DNA from: Shigella phage Henu12 | Sequence record: OQ834936 | Reading direction: 5' to 3' (one strand) | Length of the DNA stretch: 64,000 nucleotides | In this document: positions 230 to 29,437 of the stretch, one piece after another | Layout: every line of letters begins with the position of its first letter | How positions within the stretch are numbered: the stretch's first letter is position 1 | Notes under the pieces: model-generated | What the model saw: only the letters and a program-made list of their open reading frames with translations | Database searches by the model: none | What the model was told of the DNA's origin: nothing | Translations under genes and position numbers: made by a program

Positions 230-319
230 TTTGATACTCCAGTTTAGGTTGATTGTTGGTAAAGCTCTTTATCTGGGGCTTATCTTATCTAACTATAAAC
301 CCCATGTAAAGGACTTTAT
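230..319 (-). promoter_or_regulatory. repeated intergenic cassette copy A1: sigma70-like promoter (-35 TTTACA 310-305, 17-nt spacer, -10 TAAGAT 287-282), stem-loop, conserved leader with GGAG RBS
   Basis: Near-identical element recurs at 701-784 and partly at 1166-1200; hairpin GGGGUUUAU/AUAAGCCCC shows a compensatory base-pair change relative to copy A2. Confidence 0.5.
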
Positions 320-700: not shown

Positions 701-784
701 TTCAGATTCTCCAGTTTAGGATTGTTGGTAAAGCTCTTTATCTGGGGCTTAAGATACTAGCTTTTAAACCCCATGTAAAGTACT
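701..784 (-). promoter_or_regulatory. repeated intergenic cassette copy A2: promoter (-35 TTTACA 779-774, -10 TATCTT 756-751), stem-loop 745-772, conserved leader/RBS
   Basis: Direct repeat of the 230-319 element; conserved tail CCAACAATCCTAAACTGGAGAATCTGAA immediately before the ATG. Confidence 0.5.
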
Positions 785-7130: not shown

Positions 7131-7159
7131 ATTCTAAGGGGCTTTTCAGCCCCTGTCAA
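7131..7159 (-). promoter_or_regulatory. sigma70-like promoter TTGACA-N17-TAGAAT upstream of rIIB, with the GGGGCUGAAAAGCCCC palindrome in the spacer
   Basis: -35 at 7159-7154, -10 at 7136-7131; 16-nt palindrome at 7138-7153. Confidence 0.45.
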
Positions 7160-9540: not shown

Positions 9541-9573
9541 AAGAATATCTCCTTAGTTGTCGATGTGGCAAAC

Positions 9574-9601
9574 TATATAATTTTATAGATGCCACTGTCA
9601 A
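9574..9601 (-). promoter_or_regulatory. sigma70-like promoter TTGACA-N16-TATATA for rIIA
   Basis: -35 at 9601-9596, -10 at 9579-9574, then AGGAGA RBS and the rIIA ATG at 9540. Confidence 0.55.
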
Positions 9602-16044: not shown

Positions 16045-16108
16045 TGTGGTATCTTCAATAAAAAAGGTGATGCAAGCCTATCAAGACCTACACCACCTTG
16101 TCAACTAC

Positions 16109-23812: not shown

Positions 23813-24042
23813 TAAGCCTCCTTATCTTCAAACAACTTTTGTTGAGACTCAATATAGTCCATTCGTTCTTTGAGTTCAACACGTTTGCTTAACAGATGTT
23901 GAATTTGTGATTCCAGAGCATCCATCTCAGCTTCTGTAGCTGACTTAGCTTTATTGATAGTCTCCTTCAGTGCTGCTACGCCGCTCTGGATTTTAGAAAC
24001 ATGGTCATTTTTGATTTTATTAAACATTTTAAACTCTCTCAT
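23812..24042 (-). CDS. small coiled-coil protein (76 aa)
   Basis: ORF track; heptad-like charged sequence. Confidence 0.45.
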   Translation of the reverse strand: MREFKMFNKIKNDHVSKIQSGVAALKETINKAKSATEAEMDALESQIQHLLSKRVELKERMDYIESQQKLFEDKEA

Positions 24043-24529
24043 TAAGTTTCATGATTTTAGTGATTCTCTTCTCAGCTTCATCATAAGTCTCTTTTGTAAG
24101 AAACTTGATTGCTGCAATGTTTGCATTGTAGAAGAGTCGAAGCTTAGAGTCAATCCTTTTTGTCATGACGTCAAACTTATGTTGTAGGTTAGCTTCGCCG
24201 TAAACTAAGCCACCTCGCGTATAGTAAGTCTGGATAATGTAGAAGTCAAATTCTTTTTCACCAAATGCTTCAATATCTTTCTTGATGTACTCAGAAGAAG
24301 TTTGGTAGACCATCCAATCACTTTCTTTTGTCACTACTTTACGTCTGGTCTTTCCAGCAACCTTCTTCTTAGTGATACTGTTAAACTGCTTTTTACCCAA
24401 ATAATATTGACCAGTCTTTTTACAGTATACTAAGTAGACAAATCCGAAGTACTTAGCGGGGTCAATCTCCCCGCATAGTGAAATCCAGTGACCATAAGTA
24501 GGGCAATTGCCAAAACCTTTAATCTTCAT
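24029..24529 (-). CDS. GIY-YIG-like nuclease domain protein (possible homing endonuclease)
   Basis: Segment FGFVYLVYCKKTGQYYLGKK resembles the GIY-(10 aa)-YIG motif. Confidence 0.4.
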   Translation of the reverse strand: MKIKGFGNCPTYGHWISLCGEIDPAKYFGFVYLVYCKKTGQYYLGKKQFNSITKKKVAGKTRRKVVTKESDWMVYQTSSEYIKKDIEAFGEKEFDFYIIQTYYTRGGLVYGEANLQHKFDVMTKRIDSKLRLFYNANIAAIKFLTKETYDEAEKRITKIMKLNERV

Positions 24530-25026
24530 TCATAAGTTTCTCCGTGATTTGCAAACTCTCTGTGGAGTTCTTCTCTTTTCTTTCTAATTGCTTCTTTGGC
24601 ATCATCAACGTTATCAAACAGACCAAGGAAATGTGTTACACCGTGAACCATAATCCTTGCTCTCCACTTCTGTGAAGCTTTGTTGAATGATACACCTTTT
24701 ACACCAGATGTATTGTTGGAGTGTATTTTTCTATTCCAACAATTTTCAGCTTGAGTGCAAACTCTCAAGTTCATTCTTCGGTTGTCATCAGTAATTCCGT
24801 TACGATGGTCTACACGGTCTGGTAAGAACCCCTCTGTGTAAAGAATGGCTAAATCATGAGCCATGTATGATTTTCTCTTTATGGTAATCCTGATATAACC
24901 CCTTTTATGGGGTGTTCCAGCAACTGAACCAATGACTGTCCTATTAGCCGATTTCTTCAACCAAGTAAAGACCCCTGTTTCGGGGTCATAGTGTAGATAT
25001 TCTTTAAGAATCTGCCGAGTTAACAT
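24526..25026 (-). CDS. HNH homing endonuclease with AP2-like DNA-binding domain
   Basis: Motifs YDPETGVFTW, VDHRNGITDDNRRMNLRVCTQAENCWN and a C-terminal AP2-like block; paralogue of the 34605-35120 gene. Start set at internal Met (track 25062). Confidence 0.65.
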   Translation of the reverse strand: MLTRQILKEYLHYDPETGVFTWLKKSANRTVIGSVAGTPHKRGYIRITIKRKSYMAHDLAILYTEGFLPDRVDHRNGITDDNRRMNLRVCTQAENCWNRKIHSNNTSGVKGVSFNKASQKWRARIMVHGVTHFLGLFDNVDDAKEAIRKKREELHREFANHGETYE

Positions 25027-26077
25027 TTGGTGTCCACCCATACTTATCAAAAGTGAAATCATCTTTCTTATTTCTTTCCTGATAAGCTAAGAAAAAGTGT
25101 TGCTGCATTAACTCTAAAGGTGTTCTGGTAATTGTCTGACCATCCCATGAAACATAAGTGTAAGAGTCTTTCTTAGCATACAGTTCATAAATTGCATCAA
25201 GACATTCTTTGTAAGTAGTTTTACCTTCAAGAGCTTTCATTACTGCAACTTTACCAGCACCCTTTAAACCGAAGTAGTTATCTGCGTTATCACCAGCTAC
25301 GGCTTGGTAGCAGAGGAATTTAAATCCTACTCCAACTGTCTTCTTAGCTTTTGGTGTAGATTTTATTGGGCAATCCCAAATTTCACCAACGTTATTATCA
25401 GCGATAAAAATCAATGGGGCTTTCTCATAAGTCATATCAATGCAGTAAGTACCTTCAGCTTGTCGAAGGTCTTTGTCAATACTCATGAGGGCAGCTTTTT
25501 TACCCATCTTTTCAGCTTTTGCAATAACGATAGAGTCAGCTTCAAACCCATCAAGAATCAGCTTAAACTCTGGTCGTGACAGAAGATACTCACGACAAGC
25601 AACTAGGTGTGTAGGTGTTACAGCTTCTTTTCTGTTACCTTGGTATTGGTGTTCAAGACCTTTGATATCCTTGTGTTTGTGAACACCTTTCTCAGTAAGG
25701 TAACCCATCCATTTGCGTTCTTTACCAACGACTTTCAACCACTCCTGAAGAACTTGCTGTGTAGCCATAATTGCTTCAGCTTCACTTTTAGCTTCTTTCC
25801 AAGTCTGTCTTTCCCATTCATCTTCATCAAAGTCAAGTCCTAACTCTTCAGTTAAAACTCTTTGGTCAGACAACCATTGTGCTGCCAGTTTTGCACTATC
25901 AAAAGCATCGGATTCTTCAGCAGTGATTTTATTCACATACTTGTACTTTGCTTTTTCAACTACACAAGCACCTTTGTAAGCAATGCTATCAGAGTCAATA
26001 AAGACGTGTGTAACGCTCTCTGGGAGCTTTGTTAAGGTGTATTGTTCCATTGTACTCTCCATACGAAAAAGCCCCAT
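25004..26077 (-). CDS. 5'-3' exonuclease / flap endonuclease (RNase H-like)
   Basis: Motif AVAGDNADNYFGLKGAGKVAVMKALEG resembles the 5'-nuclease helix-3-turn-helix signature. Confidence 0.65.
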   Translation of the reverse strand: MGLFRMESTMEQYTLTKLPESVTHVFIDSDSIAYKGACVVEKAKYKYVNKITAEESDAFDSAKLAAQWLSDQRVLTEELGLDFDEDEWERQTWKEAKSEAEAIMATQQVLQEWLKVVGKERKWMGYLTEKGVHKHKDIKGLEHQYQGNRKEAVTPTHLVACREYLLSRPEFKLILDGFEADSIVIAKAEKMGKKAALMSIDKDLRQAEGTYCIDMTYEKAPLIFIADNNVGEIWDCPIKSTPKAKKTVGVGFKFLCYQAVAGDNADNYFGLKGAGKVAVMKALEGKTTYKECLDAIYELYAKKDSYTYVSWDGQTITRTPLELMQQHFFLAYQERNKKDDFTFDKYGWTPNVNSADS

Positions 26078-26112: not shown

Positions 26113-26973
26113 TTACTCGTCGTCAGTTTCGAAATCATCTTCGTCGTCATCATCTGGGTTTGGCAGGTCGTCGTCATCGTCATCACCACCTTTACCTTCA
26201 TCACCAGAATCTTTTGCATCTTCTTCAGTGATTTCACCGTTGTCTTCAACACCTGCAAGACCAAGCATTGCCAGTTCATCTTCATCCAGTTCAGTCTCAG
26301 TAGCACCACCAGTACCACCAGTGTAAGGAACCAGAGTATCAATGATAAATTGTTCCTGAATTGGCTTGGTCAGAACGTTACCTTCAAATGTGTAGAAGTG
26401 AGTCGCCAGAATCACACTACCAAATGAACCGTTACCAACTGCAATATCTGGATGAATTACATCGTAAGTCTTATCATCATCGTGCTTATCAGATTTTGCT
26501 GCCTTGATTTTCTTCATAGGCTGCTTAACTGCAACACGCTTACCGTTGATTTCTTCAACCAGCATTACAGGGAAACTCTGTTTTGCTGACCACACAGCAC
26601 CGTCTTTATATGCTGCTGAACGGCTAACCTTCAGGATGTGATAGGTGTCAGCTTCAAACGGAGGCTCACAACCAAACTTCTCTTCGAAGTCATCTGCATC
26701 AACAGCCTCTGTAGTAACTTTATCCCAACCTTCAGGACTCTTTTTAGACTTGGTGAACTCTTTAAAGAGCTTGTTACCATCTTTTGCCAGAATTGAAACG
26801 CTGTAGTTACAATCTTTGCCCGGAAAATGCTTATCCACAGATTTACCCTTTTGAGGACGTGGAATAGTGTTCAGGTAATAGAACCAAACATCTTTCAGCA
26901 GGTAACGAAGAGTCTCACGTTCTTGACCATTGTACTTCTCTACCGGAGCTTTCATTTTAACAACTTTAGACAT
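26113..26973 (-). CDS. putative single-stranded DNA-binding protein (T7 gp2.5-like, acidic C-terminal tail)
   Basis: C-terminus GDDDDDDLPNPDDDDEDDFETDDE; sits among T7-type replication genes. Confidence 0.5.
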   Translation of the reverse strand: MSKVVKMKAPVEKYNGQERETLRYLLKDVWFYYLNTIPRPQKGKSVDKHFPGKDCNYSVSILAKDGNKLFKEFTKSKKSPEGWDKVTTEAVDADDFEEKFGCEPPFEADTYHILKVSRSAAYKDGAVWSAKQSFPVMLVEEINGKRVAVKQPMKKIKAAKSDKHDDDKTYDVIHPDIAVGNGSFGSVILATHFYTFEGNVLTKPIQEQFIIDTLVPYTGGTGGATETELDEDELAMLGLAGVEDNGEITEEDAKDSGDEGKGGDDDDDDLPNPDDDDEDDFETDDE

Positions 26974-27024
26974 TTTAATACCTCTTTCTCAAATTAACTT
27001 TCAACTCAACTATCAAGGAGTACA

Positions 27025-27053
27025 ATCTTACAGACTTCGTACTCCCTTGTCAA
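27025..27053 (-). promoter_or_regulatory. sigma70-like promoter TTGACAAGG-N-TAAGAT upstream of the SSB candidate
   Basis: -35 at 27053-27048, 17-nt spacer, -10 at 27030-27025. Confidence 0.45.
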
Positions 27054-27058
27054 ACACT

Positions 27059-27196
27059 TTAAGCAGATTTCTTAGCTGCTTTACGAGCCGTCTTACCTGT
27101 ACGAACTCGCTTCTGTACATAGTGTTCAGCAGATTTACCAGCAGTTGCTTTCATGGAATCGCCAAATACTTTCTCGAATGCTTTAGAATGTTTCAT
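27059..27196 (-). CDS. small basic protein (45 aa, MKHSKAFEKVFGDSMKATAGKSAEHYVQKRVRTGKTARKAAKKSA)
   Basis: Hand translation; GGAGAG RBS; ATGA overlap with the upstream stop at 27193. Confidence 0.4.
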   Translation of the reverse strand: MKHSKAFEKVFGDSMKATAGKSAEHYVQKRVRTGKTARKAAKKSA

Positions 27197-27474
27197 GAAT
27201 CTCTCCGATATATTTCATATTCAAAATGTTTATTAGTCAAGGTAAAGGTGTAAACTGTAGATAACCCATCAATCGCTAATGCAAATTGCTCAACATTATC
27301 TTTTGATAAGTGTTCAAACTTTACTTCATGTCCCTTGTTGATGAGTACTTTACCGAACTGCTCTATCTTAGTCAAGCACTCTTTTACAAATTTTTCTCTG
27401 CTTTTTTCTGAATAGAAGGGTTCAAAACCCTCCTTCAGATAACTATCAATCAGTTTCGAACGGACAGTCATCAT
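27193..27474 (-). CDS. hypothetical protein (93 aa)
   Basis: ORF track. Confidence 0.5.
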   Translation of the reverse strand: MMTVRSKLIDSYLKEGFEPFYSEKSREKFVKECLTKIEQFGKVLINKGHEVKFEHLSKDNVEQFALAIDGLSTVYTFTLTNKHFEYEIYRRDS

Positions 27475-29437
27475 TATCCTCGTTAATCACAGGTGGAATG
27501 GTGGAACTTTCACGTTGTTCTTGTGTGTAAATCTCTCCAGATTCACGGTCAAAATCAACATCTTCATAGTGTGGCATAGAGTCATCGTAATGGTCTTCAG
27601 CCTCACCAATACCAAACTGCTGACGAATATTCTCTGCTGCACCATCAATATCAACACCACATCCAGCAGCCTTTACAAGACGACCTGTATCTGGATTATA
27701 CCAAGTGTGACCAGCAATACCAGTTGACTTACCATGACGGCGACATTTTGTTAGCTTGATTTTTGTCAAGTTCTTTTTAACAGGGTCTGGGTCAACCTTG
27801 TTACGCATAAGCAAAATGTTGTTCATGGAAATCTGGAAGTATGCACCAGAACCCTTGATATCTTCTTCAGAAATATCACCACCTTCAGAGTTGGCCTTTT
27901 GACCACCTGCACTCTTACGAACGTGACATACGTTTACCTGAGCATACTGATAACGCTTACAGCGACGAAGTAACTCAGACAGAACTTCTTCTTCATCTGT
28001 ATCAGAGCGTGACAGTGCCAATGTAATAGGGTCAAGGATGATAATCTTACAATCGAGACTGTTAACCAGATAGTCAACAAACTCCAGCAGGTTATCTTGG
28101 TCAATTGCCCCTTGGTGGTCTACGATGTGAATACGACGACCTTTTGACAACTCAGCATGTGCAACCTTAATCTCATCCCAATTACGCTCATCGTAAGGAA
28201 TCTCTGAAATCTGCTTACTAAGATGGATTGCACAGAGCATTTCCATAAGTTCTTCGTAAGTATCTTCTACAGGAATTACACCGATGTTGTACTCAGTATC
28301 TTTCCATGCTTTGTAAATCATCTCACGAGTATATGCAGATTTACCTACAGATGAAGGTGCAGCAAGGGTTGTAATCTCACCTAAACCATACCCGCCATAA
28401 GTCAGCTTATTCAAATCCCCGAAAGAATCTGGGAAAGGAATTAAAGGAATCTGACCACGATTCTTCATAGCATCGAAACCATCTGCAAAGTTCTTGATAC
28501 CAGCAGGGCAGTAACGAGGTGCATTGTAGATTCGTTGTTTAAATCCTTCTAAGACTGTATCTTTGTCTTTGAAGAACTTAGTCCACCACTCACTAAGGTC
28601 TTTAATACCTTCAGGATACTGGAATAGTCTTACTTTCTCAATAGGTAAGATACCAGCAGCTTCCTTAGTTGCTTTAGCCCCTGCTTCATCATTATCAAAG
28701 CATAGGTAAATCTCATCAAAGGAAGTAATATACTGATAGTTCTCTTTGATAGACTTAACATTAGCACCAGATGGTACAGAAACGTGGCAGTAATTCTTAC
28801 GTCTAGACTTATCTTTAATTGCTAAAGAAGTCATGTAGATTGCTGTAGCACATTCCATCTCACCTTCCCAGATGAAAAGACGGTTACCACCTTCTGGAGC
28901 AATCCATGAACCGAACATAGCCAGTTCACCTTTAATATCTCCGACACCACCAGAAAAGTCTTTCAACTTCCCACGTAAGTGCTCTTTGTGATAGTCATCT
29001 GGATATTTGTGACGAACACGATAACCTACATGTTGCAACTTACCATCTTCATCCTTTTTGTATGTTGGATAGAAATGTGCATCAATATCACCGTTATCAT
29101 CAATATCAACTTTAATACCGAGACGCTCAAGGACTTTTGCAGGAATCTTCCTATCTTTTAAATCCATTGCTTCTAGGTTTTCTTTCACATCATCCAAATC
29201 CATACCACGAAATGTACGGTTTTTATTCTCTGAACCTGAAGTATGAGTACTCACAATCTGCCCTTTATCAAAATCCCACTCTGGAAAACCTTTTCCACAA
29301 CTGAAACATGTCATTGAATATGAACCGTCATCATGACGATATATAGAACCTGCATCTGAAGATAAACATTGAGGGCGTGGACATGCACAGTGGCCTACAA
29401 ATGTTCCAGCATCTTTCAGTTTTCTCTGTTTAGCCAT
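27446..29437 (-). CDS. DNA primase-helicase (T7 gp4-like)
   Basis: N-terminal zinc-binding CxxC...CxxC; C-terminal Walker A (SSVGKSAYT) helicase domain. Confidence 0.85.
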   Translation of the reverse strand: MAKQRKLKDAGTFVGHCACPRPQCLSSDAGSIYRHDDGSYSMTCFSCGKGFPEWDFDKGQIVSTHTSGSENKNRTFRGMDLDDVKENLEAMDLKDRKIPAKVLERLGIKVDIDDNGDIDAHFYPTYKKDEDGKLQHVGYRVRHKYPDDYHKEHLRGKLKDFSGGVGDIKGELAMFGSWIAPEGGNRLFIWEGEMECATAIYMTSLAIKDKSRRKNYCHVSVPSGANVKSIKENYQYITSFDEIYLCFDNDEAGAKATKEAAGILPIEKVRLFQYPEGIKDLSEWWTKFFKDKDTVLEGFKQRIYNAPRYCPAGIKNFADGFDAMKNRGQIPLIPFPDSFGDLNKLTYGGYGLGEITTLAAPSSVGKSAYTREMIYKAWKDTEYNIGVIPVEDTYEELMEMLCAIHLSKQISEIPYDERNWDEIKVAHAELSKGRRIHIVDHQGAIDQDNLLEFVDYLVNSLDCKIIILDPITLALSRSDTDEEEVLSELLRRCKRYQYAQVNVCHVRKSAGGQKANSEGGDISEEDIKGSGAYFQISMNNILLMRNKVDPDPVKKNLTKIKLTKCRRHGKSTGIAGHTWYNPDTGRLVKAAGCGVDIDGAAENIRQQFGIGEAEDHYDDSMPHYEDVDFDRESGEIYTQEQRESSTIPPVINEDNDDCPFETD

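What the first reader, a model, noticed from the sequence alone, without database searches (positions are those of the whole stretch)
27059..27196. Unannotated 45-aa lysine-rich basic protein between two annotated genes
Seen: minus-strand ORF MKHSKAFEKVFGDSMKATAGKSAEHYVQKRVRTGKTARKAAKKSA with GGAGAG RBS and ATGA overlap with the upstream stop, followed by a promoter for the SSB candidate. Inference: a small nucleic-acid-binding protein near the replication genes.
Basis: seen in the sequence. Interest (0 to 1): 0.4.

Follow-up and report, generated by a model that had tools for sequence, protein, structure and literature searches.

The report
Conserved small basic phage protein gene
This is a real, strongly conserved 45-amino-acid, highly basic protein gene of FelixO1-like phages that the annotators of this genome missed; related genomes already list it as a hypothetical protein, and its function is untested.

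Summary
The window is Shigella phage Henu11 (Ounavirinae, Mooglevirus; 100% identity). The minus-strand ORF 27059..27196, its GGAGAG Shine-Dalgarno, the ATGA stop/start overlap with an upstream 93-aa ORF and a downstream sigma70-type promoter are all present as described. The ORF is a genuine gene. Third codon positions vary in 32 of 35 core codons, against 12 and 10 at positions 1 and 2. dN/dS is about 0.05-0.25. Only this frame stays open in all lineages, and synteny is strict. It is not new: it matches phrog_4424 over its full length, is the ortholog of Felix O1 ORF103, and is annotated as 'hypothetical protein' in most relatives (Sf14 gp79 and Michonne gp29 are 100% identical). Henu11 simply omits it and its 93-aa partner. 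The family is confined to part of the Ounavirinae and is absent from Erwinia phage phiEa104. It has no Pfam, NCBIfam, PADLOC, PDB or fold match. The protein is about as conserved as the primase/helicase and keeps a net charge of +8 to +10 by compensatory changes at its termini. This favours polyanion (probably nucleic-acid) binding in the replication module, but that is inference only. Side finding: the downstream promoter is bracketed by a covarying hairpin, a design that recurs in this genome.

The parts
27059..27196 (-). 45-aa basic protein gene (ortholog of Felix O1 ORF103, Sf14 gp79 and Michonne gp29; phrog_4424)
   Evidence: ORF and translation. phrog_4424 match E = 2.9e-30 over the full length. 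dN/dS 0.05-0.25, with 32 of 35 third positions variable. It is the only frame open in all lineages. Annotated as hypothetical protein in relatives.
27201..27206 (-). Shine-Dalgarno GGAGAG, 4 nt upstream of the ATG
   Evidence: Sequence. The cGGAG core is conserved at the same distance in Mooglevirus, Felixounavirus and SUSP-type genomes; P778 and Arno162 have other purine-rich stretches instead.
27193..27196 (-). ATGA stop/start overlap with the upstream 93-aa ORF (translational coupling)
   Evidence: The same 4-nt overlap is annotated in Sf14, Michonne, Felix O1 and contig L037. P778 and L040 have an 8-nt overlap, and Arno162 and L038 a 2-nt gap.
27193..27474 (-). 93-aa upstream partner ORF (phrog_4982, Felix O1 ORF102), also unannotated in Henu11
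27446..29437 (-). T7 gp4-like primase/helicase, the cistron two positions upstream in the same transcription direction
   Evidence: Pfam Toprim_2 and DnaB_C, and phrog_239. Annotated as gp11 DNA primase in Henu11.
27025..27053 (-). Conserved sigma70-type promoter (TTGACA, 17 nt, TAAGAT) for the downstream SSB-like gene
   Evidence: Hexamers and 17-nt spacing are conserved across Mooglevirus, Felixounavirus, SUSP-type, P778, Arno162, L038, L040 and phiEa104; contig L037 has no clear equivalent.
27015..27047 (-). Inverted repeat or hairpin (arms 27047..27038 and 27024..27015) with the -10 box in its loop
   Evidence: RNA fold of -14.4 kcal/mol, z = -3.6. Each of 8 lineages folds at -10 to -17 kcal/mol using different arm sequences. 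The inverted repeat occurs only once in the window.
26113..26973 (-). 286-aa SSB-like gene with an acidic C-terminal tail (phrog_3877, Felix O1 ORF104)
   Evidence: Weak colinear hhalign match to T7 gp2.5. Its C-terminal F-x-T-[DE] motif is shared with the primase/helicase C-terminus.

Best explanation
The ORF is a genuine, translated gene for a roughly 5-kDa, strongly basic, mostly helical protein. It is the Henu11 ortholog of Felix O1 ORF103 (phrog_4424). It is the last cistron of the dNMP-kinase, primase/helicase, 93-aa ORF transcription unit. It is translated by coupling to the 93-aa ORF through the ATGA overlap and its own Shine-Dalgarno. Its most likely mode of action is that of an accessory, non-universal factor of the T7-like replication and recombination module. 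In this reading it binds a polyanion, most probably DNA or RNA at or near the replication fork, through its conserved KRxRxGKTxR segment and its basic termini. The conserved amphipathic N-terminal helix (SKAFxxVFGxS) would provide a small hydrophobic core or a protein contact.

Shown: the gene is real, it is under purifying selection, it is basic in every lineage, and it has a fixed position in the replication module.

Inferred: translation in vivo, the binding partner, and any role in replication.
For: Coding signal:
- Third-position variation in 32 of 35 codons, against 12 and 10 at positions 1 and 2. dN is 0.05-0.3 while dS is saturated.
- It is the only frame without internal stops in 11 representatives. 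The antisense 107-aa ORF is broken outside Mooglevirus.
- There are no indels in the 35-aa core across 26 cluster representatives.

Translation signals: Shine-Dalgarno and ATGA overlap.

Synteny: strict in Felix O1, P778, Arno162 and three divergent metagenomic contigs.

Constraint: identity to divergent genomes (P778, Arno162, contigs L037, L038, L040) is 57-71%. That compares with 64-68% for the primase/helicase in the four most divergent of them (86% in L037), 41-48% for the SSB-like protein and 20-39% for the 93-aa partner.

Charge: pI 10.1-11.1 and net charge +8 to +10 in all lineages. Lineages whose C-tail loses charge (DHRK) gain a basic N-terminus (MAKKAK).

Structure: AF2 predicts three short helices, pLDDT 77 but pTM 0.32, which fits a flexible protein that folds on binding.

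Expression context: in Felix O1 the flanking ORFs 101 and 104 are transcribed, with a maximum at 25 min (PMC3185647).
Against: - There is no direct evidence of translation or of any binding activity. Felix O1 ORF103 was 'NT' (not tested) in the only transcript survey.
- No homology to any nucleic-acid-binding family or fold.
- The gene and its 93-aa partner are absent from Erwinia phage phiEa104, which keeps the primase/helicase, the SSB-like gene and the exonuclease. It is therefore not a core replisome component.
- Many invariant small residues (G12, S14, T18, G20, A23, G34, T36) suggest a specific, possibly protein, partner rather than generic electrostatic binding.
- Location in a replication operon is weak evidence of function in phages.
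Confidence: 0.4

Rival explanations
1. The protein is a host-directed 'take-over' factor. It binds and modulates a specific host protein, for example RNA polymerase, a nucleoid-associated protein, host SSB or the ribosome, as many small early and middle phage proteins do. Its position in the replication operon would then be incidental.
For: - Restricted, accessory distribution: present in Felixounavirus, Mooglevirus, SUSP-type, P778 and Arno-type genomes but absent in phiEa104.
- Very tight conservation of specific small and aromatic residues without indels, as expected for a defined protein-protein interface.
- Conservation is higher than that of most neighbouring genes, which would fit a slowly evolving enterobacterial host target.
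- No similarity to DNA-binding folds.
Against: - No similarity to any known phage inhibitor or anti-defence family (PADLOC, Pfam, NCBIfam).
- Strict linkage to the primase/helicase and SSB-like genes in all lineages is not expected for mobile host-takeover or accessory genes, which usually sit in variable early regions.
- The charge compensation points to a generic polyanionic ligand.
Confidence: 0.25
2. The basic peptide binds the acidic C-terminal tails of the phage's own SSB-like protein and primase/helicase. Both tails end in a shared F-x-T-[DE] motif. The peptide would then tune replisome protein-protein contacts, in analogy with the basic patches that receive the gp2.5 and gp4 tails in T7.
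For: - The gene lies exactly between the two acidic-tailed proteins.
- The tails share a motif that co-varies between phages: PFETD and DFETDDE in Henu11, PFRTE and PFKTE in phiEa104, GFQTE and GFQTE in Arno162.
- The protein keeps +8 to +10 net charge.
- The T7-type replisome context is supported by gp4-like domains and a weak gp2.5 match.
Against: - phiEa104 keeps both tails and their shared motif without having the small protein, so the tails do not depend on it.
- No co-variation between the small protein's sequence and the tail motif was seen.
- The idea could not be tested, because no complex prediction was available.
Confidence: 0.15
3. The ORF acts mainly in cis as a leader or regulatory ORF. 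Ribosomes terminating at its stop codon would sit about 10-16 nt from the hairpin that overlaps the SSB promoter. They would modulate hairpin formation, and so termination, read-through or RNA processing, at the operon boundary.
For: - The stop codon is 3-7 nt from the -35 box, and the 5' arm of a conserved, covarying hairpin starts immediately after that box.
- One similar hairpin-promoter module in the window (16104..16064) is followed by a T-run, like a terminator.
Against: - Strong amino-acid-level purifying selection with saturated synonymous change shows that the peptide sequence itself is selected. This is untypical of leader ORFs.
- The hairpin and promoter persist in phiEa104 without the ORF, so the module works independently of it.
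Confidence: 0.05
4. It is a chance ORF or a non-coding element. Conservation would reflect a DNA or RNA element or the antisense 107-aa ORF, not a protein.
For: - ORFs of this length are common in this AT-rich genome.
- The Henu11 annotators did not call it.
- An antisense 107-aa ORF (26930..27253, +) spans it.
Against: - Codon-position asymmetry and dN/dS well below 1.
- The antisense frame has stops in Felix-type, SUSP-type, P778 and Arno162 genomes.
- No Rfam match.
- Full-length PHROG family match.
- Start codon, stop codon and length (45-49 aa) are conserved across genera.
Confidence: 0.02

Closest known systems
Felix O1 ORF103 (YP_001504375.1), Shigella phage Sf14 gp79 (AUV62820.1), Citrobacter phage Michonne gp29 (AKU43978.1); PHROG family phrog_4424
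   Same: - The protein is 100% identical to the Sf14 and Michonne proteins, and about 78% identical to the 49-aa Felix-type form.
- It occupies the same slot between the roughly 93-aa ORF and the SSB-like gene.
- It has the same ATGA coupling and the same downstream promoter.
   Different: Nothing of substance. Henu11's record simply lacks the CDS feature. The Felix-type C-tail is SKDKHNFQ rather than KKSA. None of these proteins has a known function; Felix O1 ORF103 was listed as 'NT' for RT-PCR and as having no homolog in 2010.
Basic-patch and acidic-tail contacts of the T7 replisome (gp2.5 and gp4 C-terminal tails binding gp5/thioredoxin); comparison from established knowledge of T7 replication, plus PMC10359462 as listed
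   Same: - The module has a gp4-like primase/helicase and a gp2.5-like candidate, both with acidic C-termini carrying a conserved Phe.
- The 45-aa protein is a free-standing concentrated basic surface encoded between them.
   Different: In T7 the basic receptor is part of the polymerase, and no free small basic protein is known to fill this role. Nothing here shows an interaction. Phages that lack the small protein keep the tails.
CopG/Arc-type ribbon-helix-helix repressors (about 45-53 aa)
   Same: The size is similar. The gene lies next to a promoter that overlaps an inverted repeat, which could in principle be an operator.
   Different: - No Pfam RHH match.
- The predicted structure is all-helical with no N-terminal beta-strand.
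- It lacks the hydrophobic core pattern of RHH dimers.
- The inverted repeat varies between lineages while the protein's basic segment is invariant.
- The repeat persists where the protein is absent.

Membership tests
phrog_4424 / Felix O1 ORF103 family (small basic hypothetical protein of Ounavirinae) | Full-length profile match | tested here: met
   hmmscan E = 2.9e-30, residues 1-45 against profile positions 1-45 of 49.
phrog_4424 / Felix O1 ORF103 family (small basic hypothetical protein of Ounavirinae) | Conserved core SKAFxxVFGxSxxATxGKxAx5KRxRxGKTxR with no indels; total length 45-50 aa | tested here: met
   Alignments A1 and A2. There are 16 invariant columns across 26 cluster representatives.
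phrog_4424 / Felix O1 ORF103 family (small basic hypothetical protein of Ounavirinae) | Syntenic position: primase/helicase, then a roughly 92-117-aa ORF, then the small ORF, then the SSB-like gene, then the exonuclease | tested here: met
   Henu11, Sf14, Michonne, Felix O1, P778, Arno162 and contigs L037, L038 and L040.
Known nucleic-acid-binding protein families (Pfam, NCBIfam, PDB) | Significant sequence or profile match to a characterised DNA- or RNA-binding domain | tested here: not met
   - No Pfam hit at E <= 1.
- No NCBIfam hit.
- Best PDB profile hit has E = 0.67.
- An HMM search of 1.84 billion representatives returned only the family itself plus two spurious repeat proteins.
Known nucleic-acid-binding protein families (Pfam, NCBIfam, PDB) | Fold match to a nucleic-acid-binding structure | tested here: inconclusive
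   - Foldseek against the PDB gave 0 hits.
- BFVD returned only the family's own member.
- The model is 45 residues with pTM 0.32, so it has little power.
Ribbon-helix-helix (CopG/Arc/MetJ) small repressors | N-terminal beta-strand followed by two helices; Pfam RHH profile match | tested here: not met
   AF2 predicts three helices and no strand. No Pfam match.
Small bacterial or phage-encoded ribosomal proteins (bL34, bL35, bL36, bS21 and similar) | Match to the corresponding Pfam or NCBIfam model | tested here: not met
   No hit at E <= 1 in Pfam or NCBIfam.
Leader or regulatory uORF (cis-acting) | Selection on position and translation rather than on the amino-acid sequence | tested here: not met
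   dN/dS is 0.05-0.25 with saturated dS, so the amino-acid sequence is under strong selection. The downstream hairpin and promoter exist without the ORF in phiEa104.
   - hhalign of family alignment A4 against T7 gp2.5 gave probability 26.6% and P = 7e-4 over 83 colinear columns.
- No PDB sequence hit.
- phrog_3877 has 'unknown function'.
   The tail is ...DDDDDDLPNPDDDDEDDFETDDE. D275, F281 and T283 are invariant in A4. The Phe is not the terminal residue as it is in T7.

The most novel reading that the evidence does not exclude
The 45-aa protein is a previously unrecognised, dedicated accessory subunit of a T7-type replisome in FelixO1-like myoviruses. It would be a free-standing basic adaptor that docks onto DNA and/or the shared F-x-T-[DE] acidic tails of the SSB-like protein and the primase/helicase. 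This would explain why it is about as conserved as the helicase itself.
Probability: 0.15. Interest if true: 0.55.

Novelty: already known. Interest (0 to 1): 0.2.

Why it matters
**For annotation.** Henu11 (117 annotated features, against 157 in the near-identical Sf14) under-calls small genes. This ORF and its 93-aa partner should be added to the record.

**For biology.** The gene is a typical conserved small phage protein of unknown function. It is about as constrained as the primase/helicase and always sits inside the replication module of a widely used group of therapeutic and diagnostic phages (Felix O1, Sf14 and others). That makes it a cheap and reasonable target for a knockout, or for a binding study with synthetic peptide. 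If it proved to be a replisome accessory factor, it would add a component to the T7-type replication paradigm. As it stands, this is an ordinary finding.

Tried and rejected
1. **Family libraries.** Pfam, NCBIfam and PADLOC scans of the 45-aa protein, the 93-aa partner and the SSB-like protein found nothing useful.
2. **Solved structures.** A profile search of PDB sequences with the family alignment gave a best E of 0.67, on short KRVRxGKT-like strings only.
3. **Deep profile search.** An exhaustive HMM search of 1.84 billion representative proteins found only two true family representatives and no fusion (Rosetta-stone) protein. The other two hits were repeat proteins, one a 2519-aa adhesin-like protein with ...VFGDxL...FADKNVGTGKT... 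repeats and one a 202-aa repeat protein. Their scores add up over 6-9 weak stretches, so I rejected them as spurious.
4. **Structure of the 45-aa protein.** The AF2 model has three helices, pLDDT 77 and pTM 0.32. Foldseek against the PDB gave 0 hits, and BFVD returned only the family's own member.
6. **Rfam.** No match in 26800..27600.
7. **SSB-like family.** The profile against PDB sequences hit only an acidic low-complexity stretch.
8. **Literature.** Six searches (Felixounavirus transcriptome, Felix O1 promoters and RNA-seq, Ounavirinae small proteins, small basic protein with acidic tail, Mooglevirus) found no functional data. Only the 2010 Felix O1 paper lists ORF103, and there as untested.
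9. **RHH repressor acting on the adjacent inverted repeat.** Rejected. The predicted structure is all-helical, the repeat varies between lineages while the protein's basic segment does not, and the repeat persists in phiEa104 without the protein.
10. **Antisense 107-aa ORF as the real gene.** Rejected.

Full report
**Source and context.** The 3.5 kb around the finding is 100% identical to Shigella phage Henu11 (OM953433.1; Caudoviricetes, Ounavirinae, Mooglevirus). It is 98-99% identical to Shigella phages Sf13 to Sf19 and 95% identical to Citrobacter phages Michonne and Mordin. Similar DNA occurs in 275 FelixO1-like phage records. All genes here are on the minus strand, in this order:
- dNMP kinase
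- primase/helicase (27446..29437; Pfam Toprim_2 and DnaB_C, phrog_239)
- a 93-aa ORF (27193..27474; phrog_4982)
- the 45-aa ORF (27059..27196)
- a 286-aa protein with a long acidic C-terminal tail (26113..26973; phrog_3877)
- a FEN-type exonuclease (25004..26077; phrog_107)

**Check of the observation.**
- The ORF and its translation are as written.
- GGAGAG lies at 27206..27201, 4 nt before the ATG.
- The ATGA overlap with the stop of the 93-aa ORF is at 27196..27193.
- A TTGACA, 17 nt, TAAGAT promoter-like site lies at 27053..27025.
- In the Henu11 record the ORF really is unannotated. A 472-nt gap between gp11 and gp12 holds both the 93-aa and the 45-aa ORFs.

The bare observation is not beyond chance. 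The surrounding 6.5 kb has 62 ORFs of at least 30 aa, and promoter-like matches occur at background frequency (9 found against 8.9 expected). Comparative evidence is what decides the matter.

**It is a real protein-coding gene.** I collected orthologous loci from 35 related genomes and contigs, which gave 19 distinct nucleotide sequences.
- Across the 35-codon core, 32 third positions vary, against 12 first and 10 second positions.
- Between genera the synonymous sites are saturated (dS > 1 or not computable), while dN is 0.07-0.3. This gives dN/dS of about 0.05-0.25.
- The proposed frame is the only one of six without internal stops in all 11 representatives. The antisense 107-aa ORF (26930..27253, +) is open only in Mooglevirus and broken elsewhere.
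- The core SKAFxxVFGxSxxATxGKxAx5KRxRxGKTxR has 16 invariant columns and no indels in 26 cluster representatives.
- The cGGAG Shine-Dalgarno and the ATGA overlap are conserved in Mooglevirus, Felixounavirus and SUSP-type genomes. In more distant lineages the two ORFs overlap by 8 nt or are 2 nt apart.
- No Rfam family matches the region.

**It is already known as a predicted gene.**
- The protein matches phrog_4424 ('unknown function') over its full length, E = 2.9e-30.
- The identical protein is annotated as a hypothetical protein in Sf14 (gp79) and Michonne (gp29).
- Orthologs are annotated in Yersinia phage P778 (ORF080), Pectobacterium phage Arno162 (orf116) and Felix O1 (ORF103, YP_001504375.1).
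- tblastn finds it in 262 phage records, and nearly all of those listed annotate it.
- The 2010 Felix O1 genome paper lists ORF103 as 49 aa, pI 10.2, with no homolog and 'NT' (not tested) in its RT-PCR survey. The flanking ORFs 101 and 104 peaked at 25 min and ORF105 at 5 min (PMC3185647).
- I found no later functional, transcriptomic or proteomic work on it.

**Distribution and constraint.**
- The family is narrow. There are 15 and 13 clusters at 90% identity in the two word-indexed searches.
- An exhaustive HMM search of 1.84 billion representatives found only two true 50%-identity representatives. It found no fusion to a larger protein, and the two other hits are spurious repeat proteins.
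- The gene always sits between a roughly 92-117-aa ORF and the SSB-like gene.
- Erwinia phage phiEa104 (Kolesnikvirus) lacks both small ORFs but keeps the primase/helicase, the SSB-like gene and the exonuclease. The pair is therefore accessory.
- The small protein is nonetheless 57-71% identical between Henu11 and the divergent genomes examined. That compares with 64-68% for the primase/helicase in the four most divergent of them (86% in the closer contig L037), 41-48% for the SSB-like protein, 49-52% for the exonuclease and only 20-39% for the 93-aa partner.

**Properties of the protein.**
- pI is 10.1-11.1 and net charge is +8 to +10 in every lineage.
- Lineages with a weakly charged tail carry an extended basic N-terminus (MAKKAK), so total charge is conserved even where sequence is not.
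- AF2 with the family alignment predicts three short helices (residues 5-18, 23-30, 35-44) at pLDDT 77 but pTM 0.32. This indicates secondary structure without a confident tertiary arrangement.
- Helix 1 is amphipathic (muH 0.51).
- There is no match in Pfam, NCBIfam, PADLOC, PDB sequences or the PDB and BFVD fold libraries, apart from the family itself.

**Most likely function.**
- Shown: the gene is real, strongly constrained, uniformly very basic, and fixed in the replication module.
- Inferred: it acts by binding a polyanion. I consider nucleic acid at or near the replication fork the most likely ligand (about 0.4). This rests on the conserved KRxRxGKTxR segment, the charge compensation and the gene's position.
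- Rival, about 0.25: a specific host protein target. The invariant small residues and the accessory distribution fit this.
- Rival, about 0.15: the acidic C-terminal tails of the phage SSB-like protein and primase/helicase.
- Rival, about 0.05: a cis-acting leader ORF. This is disfavoured by the amino-acid-level selection.
- Rival, about 0.02: a non-coding element. This is essentially excluded.

None of the trans-acting alternatives can be separated with the available tools. The experiments that would do so are simple, because the peptide can be made synthetically.

**The 'SSB candidate' and the promoter.** The 286-aa neighbour has no family annotation. Its alignment gives a weak but colinear hhalign match to T7 gp2.5 (probability 27%, P = 7e-4), and it has an acidic tail with an invariant Phe. 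The label is reasonable but unproven.

The promoter is well supported by conservation. The TTGACA-type box, the 17-nt spacing and a TAnnAT box are kept in Mooglevirus, Felixounavirus, SUSP-type, P778, Arno162 and two of the three metagenomic lineages (L038, L040; L037 has no clear equivalent), and in phiEa104, where both small ORFs are missing. The promoter therefore belongs to the SSB-like gene and the operon boundary, not to the small ORF.

**Side finding: a hairpin that brackets the -10 box.** The 5' arm begins right after the -35 box and the 3' arm right after the -10 box.
- The arms differ between lineages but remain complementary: GGGAGTAC/GTACTCC, AGAGTATC/GATACTCT, GTGAGGGTA/TACTCTCAC, AGGGAGTG/CATTCCCT, GAAGGTA/TACCTTC.
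- The G-T wobbles would pair only in sense-strand RNA.
- Each of eight lineages folds at -10 to -17 kcal/mol, with z from -2.5 to -5.
- The same architecture recurs on the minus strand at 16104..16064 (followed by a T-run), 779..743 and 310..274. That is 4 sites with stems of at least 8 bp, against a mean of 0.47 and a maximum of 3 in 200 shuffles.
- The last two sites correspond to the 57-bp direct repeats noted in the Felix O1 paper.
- The likeliest reading is an overlapping terminator or RNA-stabiliser and promoter module at operon boundaries. An operator function is not excluded.

**Verdict.** The feature is an ordinary, already catalogued conserved hypothetical gene that the Henu11 annotation missed. 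Interest is low (0.2).

Noticed in passing
window 27015..27053 (-); also 16064..16104 (-), 743..779 (-), 274..310 (-), 9565..9601 (-): There is a recurrent promoter design. A stem of 8-11 bp starts right after the -35 hexamer (TTGACA or TTTACA) and closes right after the -10 hexamer, so the -10 box sits in the hairpin loop. Four such sites have stems of at least 8 bp, against a mean of 0.47 in shuffles. At the SSB-gene site the arms covary across 8 lineages, with G-U wobbles compatible only with sense-strand RNA, and the module persists in phiEa104. The site at 16104 is followed by TTTTATT, like a terminator. This probably marks overlapping terminator/promoter modules at operon boundaries.
   Followed up: partly
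window 27446..27475 (-) and 26113..26140 (-); L035 and L036: The primase/helicase and the SSB-like protein both end in an acidic tail with a shared F-x-T-[DE] motif. The motif co-varies between phages: PFETD and DFETDDE in Henu11, PFRTE and PFKTE in phiEa104, GFQTE and GFQTE in Arno162. It is reminiscent of the T7 gp4 and gp2.5 tails that compete for the same site on the polymerase.
   Followed up: partly
window 27193..27474 (-): A second unannotated gene in Henu11: the 93-aa ORF (phrog_4982, Felix O1 ORF102), translationally coupled to the small gene. It evolves fast, at 20-39% identity between lineages. It is predicted as a helix plus a four-stranded meander with no informative fold match. 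Henu11 has only 117 annotated features against 157 in the near-identical Sf14, so small genes are probably under-called throughout.
   Followed up: yes
window 7131..7159 (-): TTGACAGGGGCTGAAAAGCCCCTTAGAAT is a perfect -35 box and a TAGAAT -10 box, with a GC-rich terminator-like hairpin (GGGGCT/AGCCCC) filling the spacer between them. This is another form of terminator/promoter overlap.
   Followed up: no
window 24029..24529 (-) and 24526..25062 (-): Two apparent homing-endonuclease genes lie directly downstream of the exonuclease gene. The 166-aa ORF has a GIY-YIG-like N-terminus. The 178-aa ORF has HNH-like and AP2-like motifs. The corresponding slot in relatives carries a SegE-type GIY-YIG (Pfam PF19835 in L037, L038 and L040) or an HNH endonuclease (Felix O1 ORF106).
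   Followed up: no
L034 2671..3522 (Yersinia phage vB_YenM_P778 ORF081): The ortholog of the SSB-like gene is annotated as 'methyltransferase' in P778. No evidence for that was seen here (no Pfam or NCBIfam hit for the family), so it is probably a misannotation.
   Followed up: no
window 27524..27552 (-): TTGACC, 17 nt, TACACA lies inside the 3' end of the primase/helicase gene. It corresponds in position to promoter P102 (TTGACC N17 TATACT), which the Felix O1 paper predicted upstream of ORF102. The -10 box is weaker in Henu11. It could give the 93-aa/45-aa pair its own promoter.
   Followed up: no
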